Shown here: piece after piece, positions 5,088-11,306 of the stretch
Layout: every line of letters begins with the position of its first letter
How positions within the stretch are numbered: the stretch's first letter is position 1
DNA from: Dehalococcoidia bacterium
GTDB taxonomy: Bacteria > Chloroflexota > Dehalococcoidia > Lucifugimonadales > G963668185
Length of the DNA stretch: 64,000 nt
Direction of reading: 5' to 3'
Assembly (NCBI GenBank): GCA_963668185.1
Contig: OY764162.1
Coordinates: 2,660,478-2,724,477 of the forward strand
The notes under the pieces: generated by a model
What the model was told of the DNA's origin: nothing
Databases searched by the model: none
Seen by the model: only the letters and a program-made list of their open reading frames with translations
Translations under genes and position numbers: made by a program

Positions 5088-6653
5088 ATGGCAACTTACG
5101 ACACCATCGTCATCGGCGCGGGCTCCGCCGGCGCCATCATCGCCGCGCGGCTGTCCGAGGACGCAGGCCGCTCCGTGCTCCTCATCGAGGCCGGCCCGGA
5201 CCACCCCGACTTCGAGACCATCCCCAGCCACATCAAGTACGGCTACGGCCATGAAGAGCGGGCGTGGGCCAAGATTCTCGGCCCCGGCTCTGAGCACAAC
5301 TGGCGCTACACCGCCAGGTCCACCGACCTTGCCGAGCCTATGCCCGTGCCCAGGGGGAAGGCCACCGGAGGCTCCAGCGCCGTCAACGCCCAGATCTTCC
5401 TGCGCGGCGTGCCGGAGGACTACGACTCCTGGGCCGAGATGGGCAACGACGAATGGAGCTTCCGCGACCTCCTGCCCTACTTCCGCATGAACGAGACGGA
5501 CCTGGACTTCCGGGACGACTTCCACGGCGCGGACGGCCCGATCATCGCCAGGCGCTTCCCGGAAGACGAGTGGACCTACGACCAAACCGCCTTCTACAGG
5601 GCCTGCCTCGCCGCCGGCTACCGGGACTGCCCCGACCACAACGACCCCGACTCCACCGGCGTCGGCCCGTCCCCGTTCAACAACCCCAACGGCGTCCGAT
5701 GGAGCACCGCGATCGGGTACCTTGGCCCCGCGCGGCACCGCGTTAACCTGACGATCCGCCCCGAATGCTTCGTGCACGGCCTGATCGTCGAAGGCAACAG
5801 GGCCGTCGGCGCACGGGTGGAGAGCGGCGGCGAGCTGTTCGAGGTCCACGGCAACGAGATCGTCCTCAGCGCCGGCGCAATCGGCTCTCCCCACCTTCTC
5901 CTATTGTCCGGCGTCGGCCCGGCCGCCAACCTCGAGTCCGCCGGCGTCCCGGTCGTCCGCGATCTGCCCGGCGTAGGCCGCAACCTCCGCGACCACCCGC
6001 AGGTGTCGGTGCTGTGGAAGACGAAGGACGATTACAGGATGGACGCGGCCGGGCCCTATATCCAGCAGATTCTGCGTTACACCGCCGAAGGCTCGCACCT
6101 GCGAAACGACATGCTGATCATCGCGCTGTCGGCGGCCACTCGCGCTCAATACTTCGCCGACGATTTGGAACCTTTCGGCATCGGCATGATCTGCTCCCTG
6201 TACCTCGCTGCGGGAGCGGGACGCCTCGAACTTGCCTCGCCAGACCCGCACACGCAGCCCATGCTCGACTACAACTTCCTCGAAGAGGAGTTCGACCGCC
6301 GCCGCCTGCGCGAGGCGGTACGCATCTGCCTGGACCTCGCCCAACACGACGAAATCGCCGGCATAATCGAGGAGCGTTTCCAGCCCACAGACGCGGACCT
6401 GGAGTCGGACGACGCGCTCGACGAGTGGCTGCTGCGCCAGGCCACCACAAGCCACCACGTCTCCGGCACCTGCAAGATGGGGCCCGCCTCCGACCCCCTG
6501 GCCGTAGTCGATCAGCGCGGCAACGTCCACGGCATCGAAAACCTGCGCGTCGCCGACGCCTCCATCATGCCGGACTGCATCCGGGCCAACACTAACGTAA
6601 CATCCATGGTCATCGGCGAACGCATCGCCGACTGCATCCGGCAGGGCAAGTAG
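5088..6653 (+). CDS. GMC family oxidoreductase (choline dehydrogenase-like)
   Basis: GAGSAG FAD motif, PRGKATGGSSAVN, GVGRNLRDHP, HVSGTCKMG, LRVADASIMP. Confidence 0.93.
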   Translation: MATYDTIVIGAGSAGAIIAARLSEDAGRSVLLIEAGPDHPDFETIPSHIKYGYGHEERAWAKILGPGSEHNWRYTARSTDLAEPMPVPRGKATGGSSAVNAQIFLRGVPEDYDSWAEMGNDEWSFRDLLPYFRMNETDLDFRDDFHGADGPIIARRFPEDEWTYDQTAFYRACLAAGYRDCPDHNDPDSTGVGPSPFNNPNGVRWSTAIGYLGPARHRVNLTIRPECFVHGLIVEGNRAVGARVESGGELFEVHGNEIVLSAGAIGSPHLLLLSGVGPAANLESAGVPVVRDLPGVGRNLRDHPQVSVLWKTKDDYRMDAAGPYIQQILRYTAEGSHLRNDMLIIALSAATRAQYFADDLEPFGIGMICSLYLAAGAGRLELASPDPHTQPMLDYNFLEEEFDRRRLREAVRICLDLAQHDEIAGIIEERFQPTDADLESDDALDEWLLRQATTSHHVSGTCKMGPASDPLAVVDQRGNVHGIENLRVADASIMPDCIRANTNVTSMVIGERIADCIRQGK

Positions 6654-6662
6654 CTCCGCCCC

Positions 6663-6691
6663 TTGACATAACCGAACAGGTGCACTACCAT
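6663..6691 (+). promoter_or_regulatory. Sigma70-type promoter upstream of the lipoprotein array
   Basis: TTGACA (6663-6668), 17-bp spacer, TACCAT (6686-6691); ATG at 6698. Confidence 0.5.
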
Positions 6692-6894
6692 GAACTCATG
6701 TTCACAAGAAGCGGCCTCCATCACAACGCAGAATCCGGACCCGCAACCGCCGCGCGTTCCGTTTCGTTCGCGGTGAGCCTATGCAGTCCGTTCGTGGTGA
6801 GCCTGTCGAGCCATGAGCGAGCCGCGCGGCGCATGAGCTATGTCCTTACCCGGCCGGGACGCCTGCATCAGGCCAGTCGAGGGCCGCGCGTTCG

Positions 6895-7020
6895 GTGTCT
6901 CATAATTGTCTCATTTCGTCTCAGATCTGCTTCATTTCTGCCTCAAAAGCGTCTCAAAGCCGTCTCATCGCCACAGCCTCCCAGATACGGAATGAGACGA
7001 TATGAGACAAAATGAGACAC
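6895..7020. repeat. Helically phased GTCTCA array facing an inverted TGAGAC array
   Basis: GTCTCA or variants at 6897, 6908, 6918, 6929, 6940, 6951, 6962; TGAGAC at 6993, 7003, 7013. Confidence 0.85.
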
Positions 7021-7045
7021 TTCTTCGGGAGTTCAACGTCTCCGC

Positions 7046-7247
7046 CCTCACTGTCATTTCGAGTCCCTCGAGGAATCTAGGACGCCCCGCACTCCACCAA
7101 CGGCTTTCCTGGCGGCAAGCCACGCATTCGGCCAGGACAGGACGCATTCGGCAACGGCGCGTTTTGGATTCCCTTCGAGGGACTCAGGGCAGGCTCTCTC
7201 TCGATTCGCTCGATCGGAATGACAGGAGACGCGAGACAACAGCAATG
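7046..7247. repeat. About 200-bp REP-doublet-like leader, copy 1
   Basis: Bounded by CTGTCATTTCGAG and GGAATGACAG; closely similar to 11107-11306; ends at a lipoprotein start codon. Confidence 0.85.
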
Positions 7248-9134
7248 ACACATCGCGGCTACGTAGCGAGGTTACTATGTCTCTATCTGCCGACCCTCGT
7301 GTCCTGTGTGCTGTTGGCCGTTGTGTCCGCGTGCGGCACGGGCGACAGTGCGGTTTCTGGCGTCGAAACACCGGATCCTACAGCTACGGTTGAGATTGAG
7401 GACAACGCTGCGGTGGTCGGGGACATGATCATCCTCACGCCCACGGTTGAAGTTGAGGACGACAGCGACAGCGCGGCTTCCGGCGTTACGCCTGTCCCCA
7501 CACCGACGGCTGAGAACATATATCAACCTGTGAACGACGTCAGCGCGTTCGCAAGCGACACACCGACGGCTGAGGCCGATTCTTCGGCGGGGTATGACGT
7601 ATACATCAGCGGTGAATGGCTTGTGCCGCCCTCGCTGGATGAGCAGATCTTCATGTCGGACACGATCGTGCGGGCGACGCTGAAGTCTGCGACTTCGACG
7701 ACGGTGACTGCCCCAAGCGAGGGCGATGGATCGGTGTCATACCTGTCCGTGCATGAGTTGCGGTTCACGGTCCATGAGTACCTGAAGGGCAGTGGCCCAT
7801 CCGAAATACTAGTGGTTGCGCGGGGTGGCGACTATGGTAACGAAGCGTACGCGACGGTTGCGAAGGCGCGCGAGGCGGCGGACTGGACCATGTCACAACG
7901 AACCACGACGTGGGATGATCGCCAGGGAGTGCTCTTCCTGATGACGCTTGATGGTAGGGCGTTTTGGGACGGTACGCCAAGCCCGTACCATACCCAGTAT
8001 GTTCCGACCACTCCCGGGGGCGGCTCGGCATCATCAGCGACGACCACAGCGTTTGCGATATACACGGGCGCTCCTTACGAAGAGTGGTGGGTCTACACTG
8101 TCGATACGCTCAGCCGCGGGTGGCTGCCTATGGGATCTGCTCCGGCGGGCGGCAGCCCCGACAACGCGTCGGGAGCGGCCAGCGTATCGTTCATCGAGGA
8201 CGGTTCGAAGACACCGTATTCTACGGTCACGCTGGGGGAGATTCGCACCAAGATAACCGAGATGGCGGCCACACTGAAGGCGGGGGAGGGTATCGCCAGA
8301 TACCGTGAGTGCGTTCATCATAAGATTGGGCGGGAGCGGATGCGCCGGGCATACCCATGGACGCCGAAACAGTACGAGGCGACGCTGGCCTCCGGTTTGG
8401 CCGCAGGAACAGAAGCGTACAGAAGAAGAGATGGGGGTGAGCCAAAGCACCCGCTCTTCTACGTAACCGGCACGGACAAAGACTACTTTCAGGCCCCCAT
8501 CGTCGATGAGGACTCAGACCCGTACAACGGGTTCTTTCGCACGCTTTCCACCACGCGGCCACTGCTCGCAGGGACGTACAGCGTCAAGCATAACGTACAG
8601 GATTACGGGCAGGTACCCTGCAACTTCAAGCCGGACGATGCGTACTCTGAGTGGACAGTGACGGTCACCGCCCCCTCCGGCACGGTGCACGAGGCGTTCT
8701 TCGACCCGGCGTCCACGTTCCTGGGCGTCGGCGCGAGCGGGGGCGCGGGCGTGATCTCTCCCGCGTCGTTCAACGTCGGCGGCGCGACCACCACGATCAC
8801 GCGGATAGTAGTGTCGTTTGGCAGCATGGTCTCCATGCAGATATCGCCGTCCGTGTCGCTGTCCGGCAAGCACGTCGAGTTCATCAAGGTGGACGGCACA
8901 GTGGCCGCGAGGCTCTCGTTCGATAAGGGGGACCTTGGCGGCGGCATCGGCATCGACGGGGCCGGCGCAGGCAACGGCACCAGCACAGCGGAGTCGGCGG
9001 TGTCGGCGCAAGCGCAAGCGCAGATAGCCGCCGCGCTGGCCGAGGCGCAGGCCACGGGAAGCAAGATGTACTTCTGGTTCGTATCCAGCGCCCCGTGGAA
9101 GGCGGGGGACAAGCTGATGCTGCGCATACGGTAG
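7245..9134 (+). CDS. Lipoprotein of unknown function, paralog P1
   Basis: Signal peptide with lipobox VSAC; T/P/D/E-rich stalk; conserved SLDEQI, HELRF and HEAFFDP motifs and C-terminal WKAGDKLMLRIR. Confidence 0.85.
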   Translation: MTHRGYVARLLCLYLPTLVSCVLLAVVSACGTGDSAVSGVETPDPTATVEIEDNAAVVGDMIILTPTVEVEDDSDSAASGVTPVPTPTAENIYQPVNDVSAFASDTPTAEADSSAGYDVYISGEWLVPPSLDEQIFMSDTIVRATLKSATSTTVTAPSEGDGSVSYLSVHELRFTVHEYLKGSGPSEILVVARGGDYGNEAYATVAKAREAADWTMSQRTTTWDDRQGVLFLMTLDGRAFWDGTPSPYHTQYVPTTPGGGSASSATTTAFAIYTGAPYEEWWVYTVDTLSRGWLPMGSAPAGGSPDNASGAASVSFIEDGSKTPYSTVTLGEIRTKITEMAATLKAGEGIARYRECVHHKIGRERMRRAYPWTPKQYEATLASGLAAGTEAYRRRDGGEPKHPLFYVTGTDKDYFQAPIVDEDSDPYNGFFRTLSTTRPLLAGTYSVKHNVQDYGQVPCNFKPDDAYSEWTVTVTAPSGTVHEAFFDPASTFLGVGASGGAGVISPASFNVGGATTTITRIVVSFGSMVSMQISPSVSLSGKHVEFIKVDGTVAARLSFDKGDLGGGIGIDGAGAGNGTSTAESAVSAQAQAQIAAALAEAQATGSKMYFWFVSSAPWKAGDKLMLRIR

Positions 9135-11012: not shown

Positions 11013-11106
11013 GGGCCCATCTCAATCCTTCGAGGGACTCAGGGCATGCCTTCCCCAGCAGACTGGGGAAGAGGAGGGAGTCATGCTGCGGATACGGTAG
11101 GGGCGG

Positions 11107-11306
11107 CCTCACTGTCATTTCGAGCGCAGCGAGAAATCTTGGACCTCCCGCATGCCGCCAACCCCCGTCCCCGGCAAACCGCGCATTCGGCCAGGCCAGG
11201 ACGCATTCGGCAACAGGGCGTCTTGGATTCCCTTCGAGGGACTCAGGGCAGGCTCTCTCTCGCTTCGCTCGATCGGAATGACAGGGGGCGCGAGACAACA
11301 GCAATG
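11107..11306. repeat. About 200-bp REP-doublet-like leader, copy 2
   Basis: Homologous to 7046-7247, including the nested CTTCGAGGGACTCAGGGCAGGCTC module. Confidence 0.85.

What the first reader, a model, noticed from the sequence alone, without database searches (positions are those of the whole stretch)
6895..7020. Helically phased, inverted hexamer arrays (7 x GTCTCA facing 3 x TGAGAC)
Spacings are 11, 10, 11, 11, 11, 11 bp on the left (5 perfect, 2 degenerate copies) and 10, 10 bp on the right. The outer about 28 bp of each side form an inverted repeat (GTGTCTCATAATTGTCTCATTTCGTCTCA versus the reverse complement of TGAGACGATATGAGACAAAATGAGACAC). One-turn phasing puts all sites on one face of the helix, as in iteron, centromere or transposase-end arrays (established). 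No cognate protein is visible in the window. Inference: a cooperative protein-loading or looping site controlling or mobilising the downstream lipoprotein cassette.
Basis: partly seen in the sequence, partly recalled or inferred. Interest (0 to 1): 0.65.

Follow-up and report, generated by a model that had tools for sequence, protein, structure and literature searches.

The report
Promoter, translated leader, foldback repeat cassette
The phased GTCTCA/TGAGAC arrays are real, but they are the two arms of one copy of a dispersed cassette (own promoter, a short translated reading frame with no conserved protein, and a foldback of phased 7-base units) found dozens of times in a few uncultured Dehalococcoidia lineages, and apparently undescribed.

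Summary
In detail: seven (T)GTCTCA units at 10-11 bp face three TGAGAC(A) units at 10 bp (6896-7019).

The site is not specific to the lipoprotein genes. It is one of at least 24 modules in this 2.78-Mb genome, and congeners carry 19-54. Every module has the same plan:
- a sigma70-like promoter, TTGnCn-GAAC-N5-TGCTAnnAT;
- an ATG at the predicted +1;
- a 90-390 nt unconserved leader;
- about seven TGTNNCA units at 11 nt, then a 13-nt spacer;
- the invariant core CCAGCTACGRA;
- three TGNNACA units at 10 nt, then a T-rich tail.

The NN dinucleotide differs between module types and species, and it covaries between the two arms.

The new result concerns the ATG frame. It stays open to the core in 63 of 73 modules (16 stops, against 91 and 86 in the other frames). 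There is no coding signature, and the conserved DNA is read in all three frames.

My best reading (about 0.45) is a portable promoter plus leaderless translated leader, whose foldback acts on the RNA as a translation-sensitive terminator or attenuator. The main rival (about 0.25) is a cooperative DNA-binding protein. The two OmpR-type regulators shared by the genus do not track the heptamer changes.

The parts
6663..6691 (+). Module promoter: -35 TTGACA (6663-6668), 17-bp spacer holding the family's GAAC element, -10 TACCAT (6686-6691).
   Evidence: 10/12 match, and the only promoter-like site in 6500-7400. The same TTGnCn-GAAC-N5-T(G/A)CTAnnAT promoter precedes sister copies. Homology among close copies begins exactly here.
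6698..7015 (+). Leaderless short ORF of 105 codons. The ATG lies 6 nt after the -10. The frame reads through the leader, two REP-like inserts and the whole left array, and stops at the TGA of the third TGAGAC.
   Evidence: same frame as listed ORF 6680..7015. Family-wide, the ATG frame is open to the core in 63/73 modules against 24 and 31 for the other frames, with 16 stops against 91 and 86.
6757..6830 (+). REP-like repeats (GTTCGYGGTGAGCCT...) inserted in the leader. They are not part of the conserved module.
   Evidence: present in copies E, 191090, 2459515 and 394760, absent from 2580689. The ORF stays open across them.
6896..6967 (+). Left array of seven heptamers at 11-nt period. L1 6896-6902 and L2 6907-6913 are TGTCTCA. 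L3 is 6917-6923, L4 6928-6934 (GCTTCA), L5 6939-6945 (GCCTCA), L6 6950-6956 and L7 6961-6967.
   Evidence: The same slot-specific pattern appears in the sister copies aligned.
6968..6980 (+). GC-rich spacer of fixed length (13 nt, occasionally 14) and variable sequence.
   Evidence: Read from the aligned copies.
6981..6991 (+). Core CCAGATACGGA (family consensus CCAGCTACGRA). This is the element best conserved across all heptamer types and across families of the order.
   Evidence: invariant columns C, A, G, T, G.
6993..7019 (+). Right array of three inverted heptamers at 10-nt period: R1 6993-6999, R2 7003-7009, R3 7013-7019 (TGAGACA). It supplies TGA in all three frames.
   Evidence: Consensus A-TG-NN-AC-A-R-A-A repeated three times. 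Pairing L1:R3 93.9%, L2:R2 84.2%, L3:R1 64.8%, with compensatory changes.
7020..7026 (+). T-rich tail (CTTCTTC). It is weak in this copy; sister copies have GATTTTT or CATTTTT.
   Evidence: positions +30 to +32 after the core are T in 82, 67 and 60% of 73 modules. At least 4 T in 6 nt occurs in 41/73, against 31/299 control windows.

Best explanation
The arrays are the two arms of a foldback that ends a self-contained cassette.

Shown:
- The cassette starts at a strong sigma70-type promoter of a module-specific kind.
- An ATG stands at the predicted transcription start, so the transcript would be a leaderless mRNA.
- The reading frame from that ATG is kept open by selection through an otherwise unconstrained leader and through the left array.
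- The frame does not encode a conserved protein.
- The heptamers of the left and right arrays covary as a nested foldback, best at the outermost pairs.
- The foldback is usually followed by a T-rich tract.
- Modules stand at conserved places in front of diverse genes, and most have no second promoter between them and the gene.

Inferred:
- The cassette works on the RNA as a portable promoter plus a translation-sensitive terminator or attenuator.
- When ribosomes that loaded at the 5'-terminal AUG cover the left array, the right arm finds no partner and RNA polymerase reads on into the downstream gene.
- When the leader is not being translated, any free left units pair with the right arm next to the T-tract, and transcription stops or the RNA is processed.
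- The surplus of left units (seven for three) gives alternative pairing registers, so the stem is prevented only by dense ribosome traffic.

In the window, this cassette (6663-7026) would supply the promoter and leader of the lipoprotein gene cluster.
For: Family and architecture.

Promoter:
- In the window.
- 21 promoters of this type occur in the genome; 18 have ATG and 1 has GTG exactly 5-6 nt after the -10, and all are followed by short ORFs.
- Homology among close copies starts at the -35 and ends at the last heptamer.

Translation:
- 73 non-redundant modules from 6 genomes show 16 stops in the ATG frame against 91 and 86 in the other frames (4804 codons each). Shuffles give 137 +/- 11.
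- The ATG frame is open to the core in 63/73 against 24 and 31.
- GC by codon position is flat (0.63/0.61/0.66, against 0.71/0.49/0.77 in genes).
- The core is read in all three frames (22/31/20).
- Paralogues B and F read the array in different frames.

Foldback:
- 81% of cells are paired against 24-43% for slid partners. The covariation score is 0.303 against 0.132 +/- 0.012 in shuffles (0 of 500 reach it). Four Watson-Crick pair types occur at column 13:131.
- L1:R3 is better paired than L2:R2, which is better than L3:R1.

T-tract.

Function in place:
- At least 7 of 24 modules have a module before the same gene in a congener.
- Only 2 of 38 have a strong second promoter within 170 nt downstream.
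- About 17 of 24 downstream genes are co-oriented.

Precedent: leaderless short ORFs acting as attenuators in mycobacteria (bioRxiv 10.1101/834739, found).
Against:
- The T-tract is weak or absent in many G000 copies of the GTCTCA type, including the window copy.
- A terminator whose 5' strand lies about 115 nt upstream is atypical.
- About 7 of 24 modules point at a convergent gene, and one such site is conserved in a congener.
- Non-Watson-Crick cells are more often A:C (28) than G:U (11) on the sense strand, and the antisense strand folds at least as well. So there is no strand-specific sign of RNA pairing.
- Spacers between heptamers do not covary consistently.
- Covariation between arms would also arise if both arms were sites for one protein.
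- Some hybrid modules do not pair in mirror order (L076, L088).
Confidence: 0.45

Rival explanations
1. The arrays are cooperative binding sites on duplex DNA for a winged-helix or similar protein. Units lie on one helical face, seven in one direction and three in the other. Bound protein would act as a roadblock, operator or looping site for the module promoter.
For: - Strict 11- and 10-bp phasing, and a spacer of fixed length but free sequence.
- The unit consensus TGNNACA with A-rich 3-4 bp spacers resembles OmpR, PhoB and MtrA half-sites (own knowledge).
- All left slots, not only those that would pair, carry the module's heptamer type.
- A:C exceeds G:U on the sense strand.
- Earlier notes e1-2419485 and e1-3358895 are leads only.
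Against: - At least 7 heptamer types exist, with 3 or more in one genome, and orthologous sites switch type between species.
- The genome has only 3 OmpR-type DNA-binding domains.
- The two regulators shared by all four congeners have near-identical recognition helices, differing only I/V and R/K, so they do not track the switches.
- The hybrid kinase-regulator was not found in G002, which has the most modules.
- The arrays lie about 200-320 nt downstream of the only promoter rather than at a -35, and only 2/38 have a strong promoter behind them.
- The conserved ATG and the open frame are left unexplained.
- A protein that reads only TGT..CA would not explain why NN matches between the arms.
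Confidence: 0.25
2. The module is a selfish foldback repeat (MITE- or REPIN-like), copied in trans by a host-encoded enzyme such as the RAYT-like HUH transposases. The core would be the recognition or cleavage site, and the promoter merely a passenger.
For: - Copy number varies from 13 to 54 promoter-pattern hits per genome within one genus.
- The window's site is not occupied by the same module in three congeners.
- Heptamer types are species-specific, as REPIN populations are.
- The reverse complement of the core contains GTAG.
- Both Y1_Tnp genes of the genome lie within 300 nt of a module.
- Promoter reuse is documented in prokaryotes (PMC3575422).
Against: - No target-site duplication was seen at the sites inspected.
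- I noticed no near-identical copies with unrelated flanks, though I made no systematic search.
- The unit begins at a -35, not at an inverted repeat.
- GTAG lies inside the loop, not at the foot of a short palindrome.
- RAYT no. 2 is flanked on both sides by classical GTAGGGGCGCTTCGCGAAGCGCCC REPs, a motif with at least 58 copies in the genome, and these are its likely cognates.
- Modules are kept at the same sites across species with about 83% coding identity.
- The ATG, open frame, core and arms are retained while the leader is randomised, which indicates selection on function.
Confidence: 0.15
3. Each module is a stand-alone gene: either a small protein whose C-terminus is built from the repeat, or a small RNA with a repeat-rich 3' domain that titrates a factor or pairs in trans.
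For: - Each module has its own promoter, an open frame, a foldback and a T-rich end.
- Some modules face convergent genes.
- An 11-nt repeat gives the same 11-residue periodic peptide in every frame (inference).
- Two minimal copies consist of the promoter fused directly to the right arm.
Against: - There is no coding GC signature.
- Paralogues use different frames, and the conserved core is read in all three frames.
- Peptides are unconserved and of low complexity.
- There is no Rfam family match.
- The minimal copies sit directly in front of co-oriented genes.
Confidence: 0.1

Closest known systems
Ribosome-mediated transcription attenuators, especially leaderless short-ORF attenuators of mycobacteria (bioRxiv 10.1101/834739) and the pyrBI leader of E. 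coli (own knowledge)
   Same: - A short ORF sits upstream of the regulated gene and starts at the 5' end of the transcript.
- Its translation, not its product, is what matters.
- The ORF overlaps a hairpin that is followed by a T-rich tract.
   Different: - There are no runs of regulatory codons and no identifiable antiterminator.
- The stem is built from phased heptamer repeats, with seven alternative 5' partners for three 3' units.
- The same cassette serves dozens of unrelated genes.
- Function is untested.
OmpR/PhoB-family response-regulator site arrays (ompF F1-F3, Pho boxes; own knowledge)
   Same: - Heptamer-like units with A/T-rich spacers occur in head-to-tail rows at 10-11 bp.
- The unit consensus is TGNNACA.
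   Different: - The arrays lie downstream of the promoter, inside a translated leader.
- Two opposed rows covary.
- There are many heptamer types without matching changes in the two regulators shared by the genus.
REP/REPIN elements with RAYT transposases; MITEs that carry promoters (Correia elements); 'mobile promoters' (PMC3575422, PMC8049555, PMC3733652)
   Same: - The elements are dispersed, intergenic and hairpin-forming.
- Sequence types are species-specific and persist over long periods.
- The elements can supply promoters.
   Different: - The unit starts at a -35 and contains a maintained ORF.
- No terminal inverted repeats bound the whole unit, and no target duplication was seen.
- GTAG is not at the foot of a short palindrome.
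Plasmid centromere and iteron arrays (parC/ParR of R1, tubC/TubR; own knowledge)
   Same: Rows of short repeats one helical turn apart, arranged in two blocks around a central segment.
   Different: - There is no adjacent par or rep gene.
- There are 24 or more loci on one chromosome.
- The central segment is not a promoter.

Membership tests
OmpR/PhoB-type regulator binding-site array | Tandem half-sites of about 7-10 bp at 10-11 bp spacing | tested here: met
OmpR/PhoB-type regulator binding-site array | Sites lie upstream of, or overlap, the -35 of the regulated promoter | tested here: not met
   The array lies about 200-320 nt downstream of the only promoter-like site. Only 2/38 modules have a strong promoter within 170 nt behind the array.
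OmpR/PhoB-type regulator binding-site array | A cognate regulator whose specificity matches the site | tested here: not met
   The genome has three Trans_reg_C domains. The two regulators common to all four congeners keep near-identical recognition helices (only I/V and R/K differ) while heptamer types change. Other classes of protein were not tested.
Iteron / centromere (parC-like) array | Adjacent cognate rep or par gene; one or a few loci per replicon | tested here: not met
   Neighbours are a GMC oxidoreductase and lipoproteins. There are 24 or more loci in the chromosome. There is no match in plasmids or phages.
MITE / transposon ends | Terminal inverted repeats bounding the whole unit, and a target-site duplication | tested here: not met
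   Homology among copies starts at the -35, 230 nt before the first heptamer. No duplication was seen at the flanks. No orthologous empty site could be aligned, so the duplication test is weak.
REP/REPIN with RAYT | GTAG (or CGTC) tag at the foot of a 20-40 nt palindrome; RAYT gene flanked by its own REPs | tested here: inconclusive
   GTAG is present only on the opposite strand, inside the loop. Both Y1_Tnp genes lie within 300 nt of a module, but RAYT no. 2 is flanked by classical GTAG REPs.
Leader-peptide (ribosome-mediated) attenuator | Short translated ORF in the leader | tested here: met
   By sequence statistics only.
Leader-peptide (ribosome-mediated) attenuator | Terminator hairpin with U-tract, and a competing antiterminator | tested here: inconclusive
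   The stem covaries. A T-tract is present in 41/73 modules but is weak in the window copy. No antiterminator was identified, and the simple terminator scan does not call it.
Leader-peptide (ribosome-mediated) attenuator | Control codons related to the regulated pathway | tested here: not met
   Peptides are unconserved, the frames differ, and the downstream genes are unrelated.
Any Rfam RNA family | Score at or above the family's gathering threshold | tested here: not met
   best hits 14.9 and 14.7 bits against gathering thresholds of 84 and 53.4.

The most novel reading that the evidence does not exclude
The cassette is a new kind of gene-control device: a ribosome-traffic gauge. A leaderless leader ORF runs over seven interchangeable 5' pairing units. 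The three 3' units next to a T-tract can be left unpaired, and the polymerase released into the gene, only if several ribosomes cover the whole left array. Carried on a portable promoter to 25-55 genes per genome, it would tie a large and evolvable regulon directly to translational capacity. The two free bases of each heptamer would be an address that evolves in concert within a genome and may be read by a trans-acting RNA or protein.
Probability: 0.2. Interest if true: 0.8.

Novelty: new variant of a known kind. Interest (0 to 1): 0.6.

Why it matters
If the reading holds, it gives three things:
- a compact, portable promoter-plus-leader unit that bacteria have spread to dozens of unrelated genes;
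- a clear case in which selection keeps a reading frame open without keeping any protein;
- a terminator-like stem built from phased repeats with redundant pairing registers.

It would add a mechanism to the short list of ways in which transcription is coupled to translation. It would also show how a regulon can be assembled by copying a cassette.

The cassette is small (about 360 bp), so it can be tested in a laboratory host or in a coupled in-vitro system, although the organism itself is uncultured.

If the protein-binding rival is right instead, the family is a large set of sites for a regulator, still unidentified, whose specificity changes between sister species.

Tried and rejected
- Rfam search of 6500-7400 at E up to 10: only chance-level hits.
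- Coding repeat: rejected, because paralogues read the array in different frames and there is no GC3 signature.
- LexA (GAAC-N4-GTTC) operator idea for the GAAC element: the only intergenic matches of note are the module promoters themselves, and none sat obviously beside an SOS-type gene among the neighbours listed.
- Sense-strand wobble test for RNA pairing: not supportive. G:U-type against A:C-type mismatches were 32 against 67 with spacers and 11 against 28 in heptamers. The test is confounded by related copies.
- Folding of both strands: both fold well, so folding is not informative.
- RNAalifold within the GTCTCA type: almost no variation, so no test.
- Orthologous empty site for the window copy: the flanks are too diverged to align, and congeners carry other modules or none there.
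- Trans-acting 'right-arm only' RNA idea: the two minimal copies are simply 5' ends of downstream genes.
- RAYT link: weakened by the classical REPs flanking RAYT no. 2.
- OmpR-type regulators as readers of the heptamers: recognition helices are essentially unchanged across species.
- SARP idea: the 799-aa protein is a hybrid kinase-regulator, not a SARP.
- Plasmid and phage collections: no match.
- Strict core pattern in 400 other genomes of the class: none. Sensitivity is only about 12% per module.

Full report
**1. The observation**

The sequence and a hexamer search place GTCTCA at 6897, 6908, 6918, 6951 and 6962. Degenerate GCTTCA and GCCTCA lie at 6929 and 6940. TGAGAC lies at 6993, 7003 and 7013. 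The outer units form an inverted repeat of 18 nt at 94% and 24 nt at 88% complementarity.

Eight of the window's 18 hexamer hits lie in 122 bp, and the hexamer is otherwise rarer than expected (18 found against 32 +/- 6 expected). The unit is really a heptamer: TGTCTCA on the left, TGAGACA on the right.

**2. It is one copy of a family**

A scan of the whole 2.78-Mb genome found the same roughly 125-bp arrangement elsewhere. The degenerate 3rd and 4th units fall at the same positions in most aligned copies, and a conserved motif (CCAGMTACGRA) sits before the right arm.

A search anchored on that core found at least 11 GTCTCA-type copies. It also found sister types with the same plan built from other heptamers: TGGGACA/TGTCCCA, and TGT(A/C/G)ACA with its complement.

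About 90-390 nt upstream of almost every copy lies a promoter of one particular kind, TTGnCn-N5-GAAC-N5-T(G/A)CTAnnAT. An ATG follows 5-6 nt after the -10. Without asking for the ATG, 21 such promoters exist in the genome. Eighteen have ATG and one has GTG at that place, and none precedes a long gene directly.

In the window the promoter is TTGACA 6663-6668 / TACCAT 6686-6691. It is the only promoter-like site in 6500-7400. The ATG is at 6698.

Among the closest copies, homology begins exactly at the -35 and ends at the last heptamer. The leader tolerates REP insertions.

**3. Distribution**

- GTCTCA-type arrays are abundant in one congener (G001, record OZ253485.1, 'MAG: Dehalococcoidia bacterium'). 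They are present in G003 and were not found in G002.
- The promoter-plus-ATG pattern occurs 13, 28, 54 and 19 times in the four congeners. It occurs 12, 10, 4 and 2 times in four other families of the order. The reversed control pattern gives zero everywhere.
- Those other genomes carry the same plan and the same core with yet other heptamers: TGGAACA, TGTTGCA, TGTCAGA and GTAACG.
- A strict core pattern found nothing in 400 further genomes of the class, at about 12% sensitivity per module.
- There is no match in Rfam, plasmids or phages.

**4. The new result: a translated frame without a protein**

I collected 73 non-redundant modules from six genomes. Over 4804 codons per frame:

| Measure | ATG frame | Other two frames |
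|---|---|---|
| Stop codons | 16 | 91 and 86 |
| Open from ATG to core | 63 of 73 | 24 and 31 of 73 |

Shuffled sequence gives 137 +/- 11 stops (smaller sets).

Yet several things argue against a conserved protein:
- GC content by codon position is flat, 0.63/0.61/0.66, against 0.71/0.49/0.77 in long genes.
- The leaders are not alignable between types.
- The invariant core is read in all three frames (22/31/20).
- Paralogues B and F read the array in different frames.

In the GTCTCA type, three TGAGAC units at 10-nt spacing put a TGA in every frame. Thirty of the 73 frames end inside the right arm. The window's frame (6698-7015, 105 codons) ends at the TGA of the third unit.

The simplest reading is that translation of the leader matters and its product does not.

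**5. The two arms pair**

I aligned 28 modules of six heptamer types and counted the nested structure L1:R3, L2:R2, L3:R1.
- 81% of cells are paired, against 24-43% when the partners are slid.
- The covariation score is 0.303, against 0.132 +/- 0.012 in shuffles (0 of 500 reach it).
- One column pair shows four Watson-Crick types (GC 7, AU 6, UA 6, CG 5).
- Pairing falls from the outside inwards: 93.9, 84.2 and 64.8%.
- A blind test in a script gave 141 of 168 Watson-Crick cells at the two variable positions, against 68 on permutation.
- L1 and L2 are the left units closest to the complement of the right arm.

After the last unit comes (C/G)(A/T)TTT. At least four T in six occur in 41 of 73 modules, against 31 of 299 control windows.

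The tail is weak in the window copy and in most GTCTCA-type copies of this genome.

**6. Place and neighbours**

The GMC oxidoreductase upstream of the window's module has orthologues in three congeners at 82-85% identity. None of them has this module behind it:
- G001 has a TGTNACA-type module in the opposite direction.
- G002 has a TGGAACA-type module about 1 kb away.
- G003 has none within 1.5 kb.

By contrast, at least seven other modules of this genome have a module in front of the same gene in a congener, often of another heptamer type (sequences). So sites persist while the module's type changes. This could come from concerted evolution, from replacement by gene conversion, or from co-evolution with a trans factor.

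Downstream genes are diverse and mostly co-oriented (about 17 of 24 by crude gene calls). Only 2 of 38 modules have a strong second promoter behind them. This fits a role as the genes' promoter and leader. About seven modules face convergent genes, which does not fit that role.

**7. Rivals tested**

(a) A protein on duplex DNA. The phasing and the unit consensus TGNNACA look like OmpR/PhoB half-sites (own knowledge; also the reading of earlier notes). The following count against it:
- The genome has only three such DNA-binding domains.
- The two regulators shared by all four species keep near-identical recognition helices while the heptamer types differ.
- The hybrid kinase-regulator was not found in the species with the most modules.
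- The arrays lie far downstream of the promoter.

Another class of protein is not excluded.

(b) A selfish foldback moved by RAYT-like enzymes. Both Y1_Tnp genes lie within 300 nt of a module. However, one of them is flanked by classical GTAG REPs, a motif with at least 58 copies in the genome. No target duplications or sharp insertion ends were seen.

(c) A stand-alone small protein or small RNA. This is unlikely for the reasons in section 4, but it is not excluded.

**8. What weakens the preferred model**

- No transcript data could be consulted.
- There is no excess of G:U over A:C on the sense strand, and both strands fold.
- The stem's 5' strand is far from the T-tract.
- Some hybrid modules do not pair in mirror order.
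- Covariation between the arms is also what one protein reading both arms would produce.

**9. Verdict**

It is wrong in treating the site as specific to that cluster or as a centromere, iteron or transposon end.

The best-supported description is a portable promoter / leaderless-ORF / heptamer-foldback cassette. It most likely acts on the RNA as a translation-sensitive terminator or attenuator (confidence about 0.45). I found no published description.

Noticed in passing
window 6654-7020, with genome copy at C1:2459515 (- strand): In G001 the GMC oxidoreductase gene is followed by the gene that, in this genome, lies behind the module copy at 2459515, 208 kb away and inverted. That copy follows a lipoprotein-gene tail. 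This fits a large inversion by recombination between two inverted module copies.
   Followed up: partly
genome C1:731990-732055 and C1:758930-758990 (outside the window): Two minimal modules. The module promoter is fused directly to the right arm, so that the +1 ATG is the ATG of the first ATGAGAC or ATGTTAC unit. Each sits just upstream of a co-oriented gene (a DNA methylase-like gene and a rhodanese-like gene).
   Followed up: partly
genome C1:1030279-1030989 (-) and C1:2121588-2122136 (+): The genome's only two RAYT-like (Y1_Tnp, HUH) genes each lie within 300 nt of a module. The second is flanked on both sides by classical REPs (GTAGGGGCGCTTCGCGAAGCGCCC), a motif with at least 58 copies in the genome.
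   Followed up: partly
window 6757-6830 and 7020-7240: Other repeat families are nested around the module. GTTCGYGGTGAGCCT... REP-like units sit inside the translated leader without breaking its frame. A CTCGAGGGACTC-type palindromic repeat lies between the module and the lipoprotein start, and recurs before the third paralogue (about 11020-11300).
   Followed up: no
L098, L101, L104 (Duncaniella MAG), L095 (Sodaliphilus), L107 (Cyclobacteriaceae), L103 (Nitrososphaeraceae): Unrelated genomes hold rows of TGAGACAAAA at 10-nt period. In the Bacteroidota cases these face rows of GTCTCA, or an 11-nt repeat (CTGCTCAAAT x 9). The layout resembles this one, and the origin is unknown.
   Followed up: no
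G003: Hybrid histidine kinase-response regulator proteins of about 800 aa with a C-terminal OmpR-type domain number 1 in this genome, 2 in G001, none found in G002 and about 9 in G003.
   Followed up: no
L052 (G044, another family of the order): The same GAAC-N5-TGCTAnnAT promoter type stands about 60 nt before a tRNA gene. The promoter type may therefore be older or more general than the foldback module.
   Followed up: no
whole window: Outside the array, GTCTCA/TGAGAC is about three-fold rarer than dinucleotide shuffles predict (10 hits against 32 expected in 64 kb).
   Followed up: no
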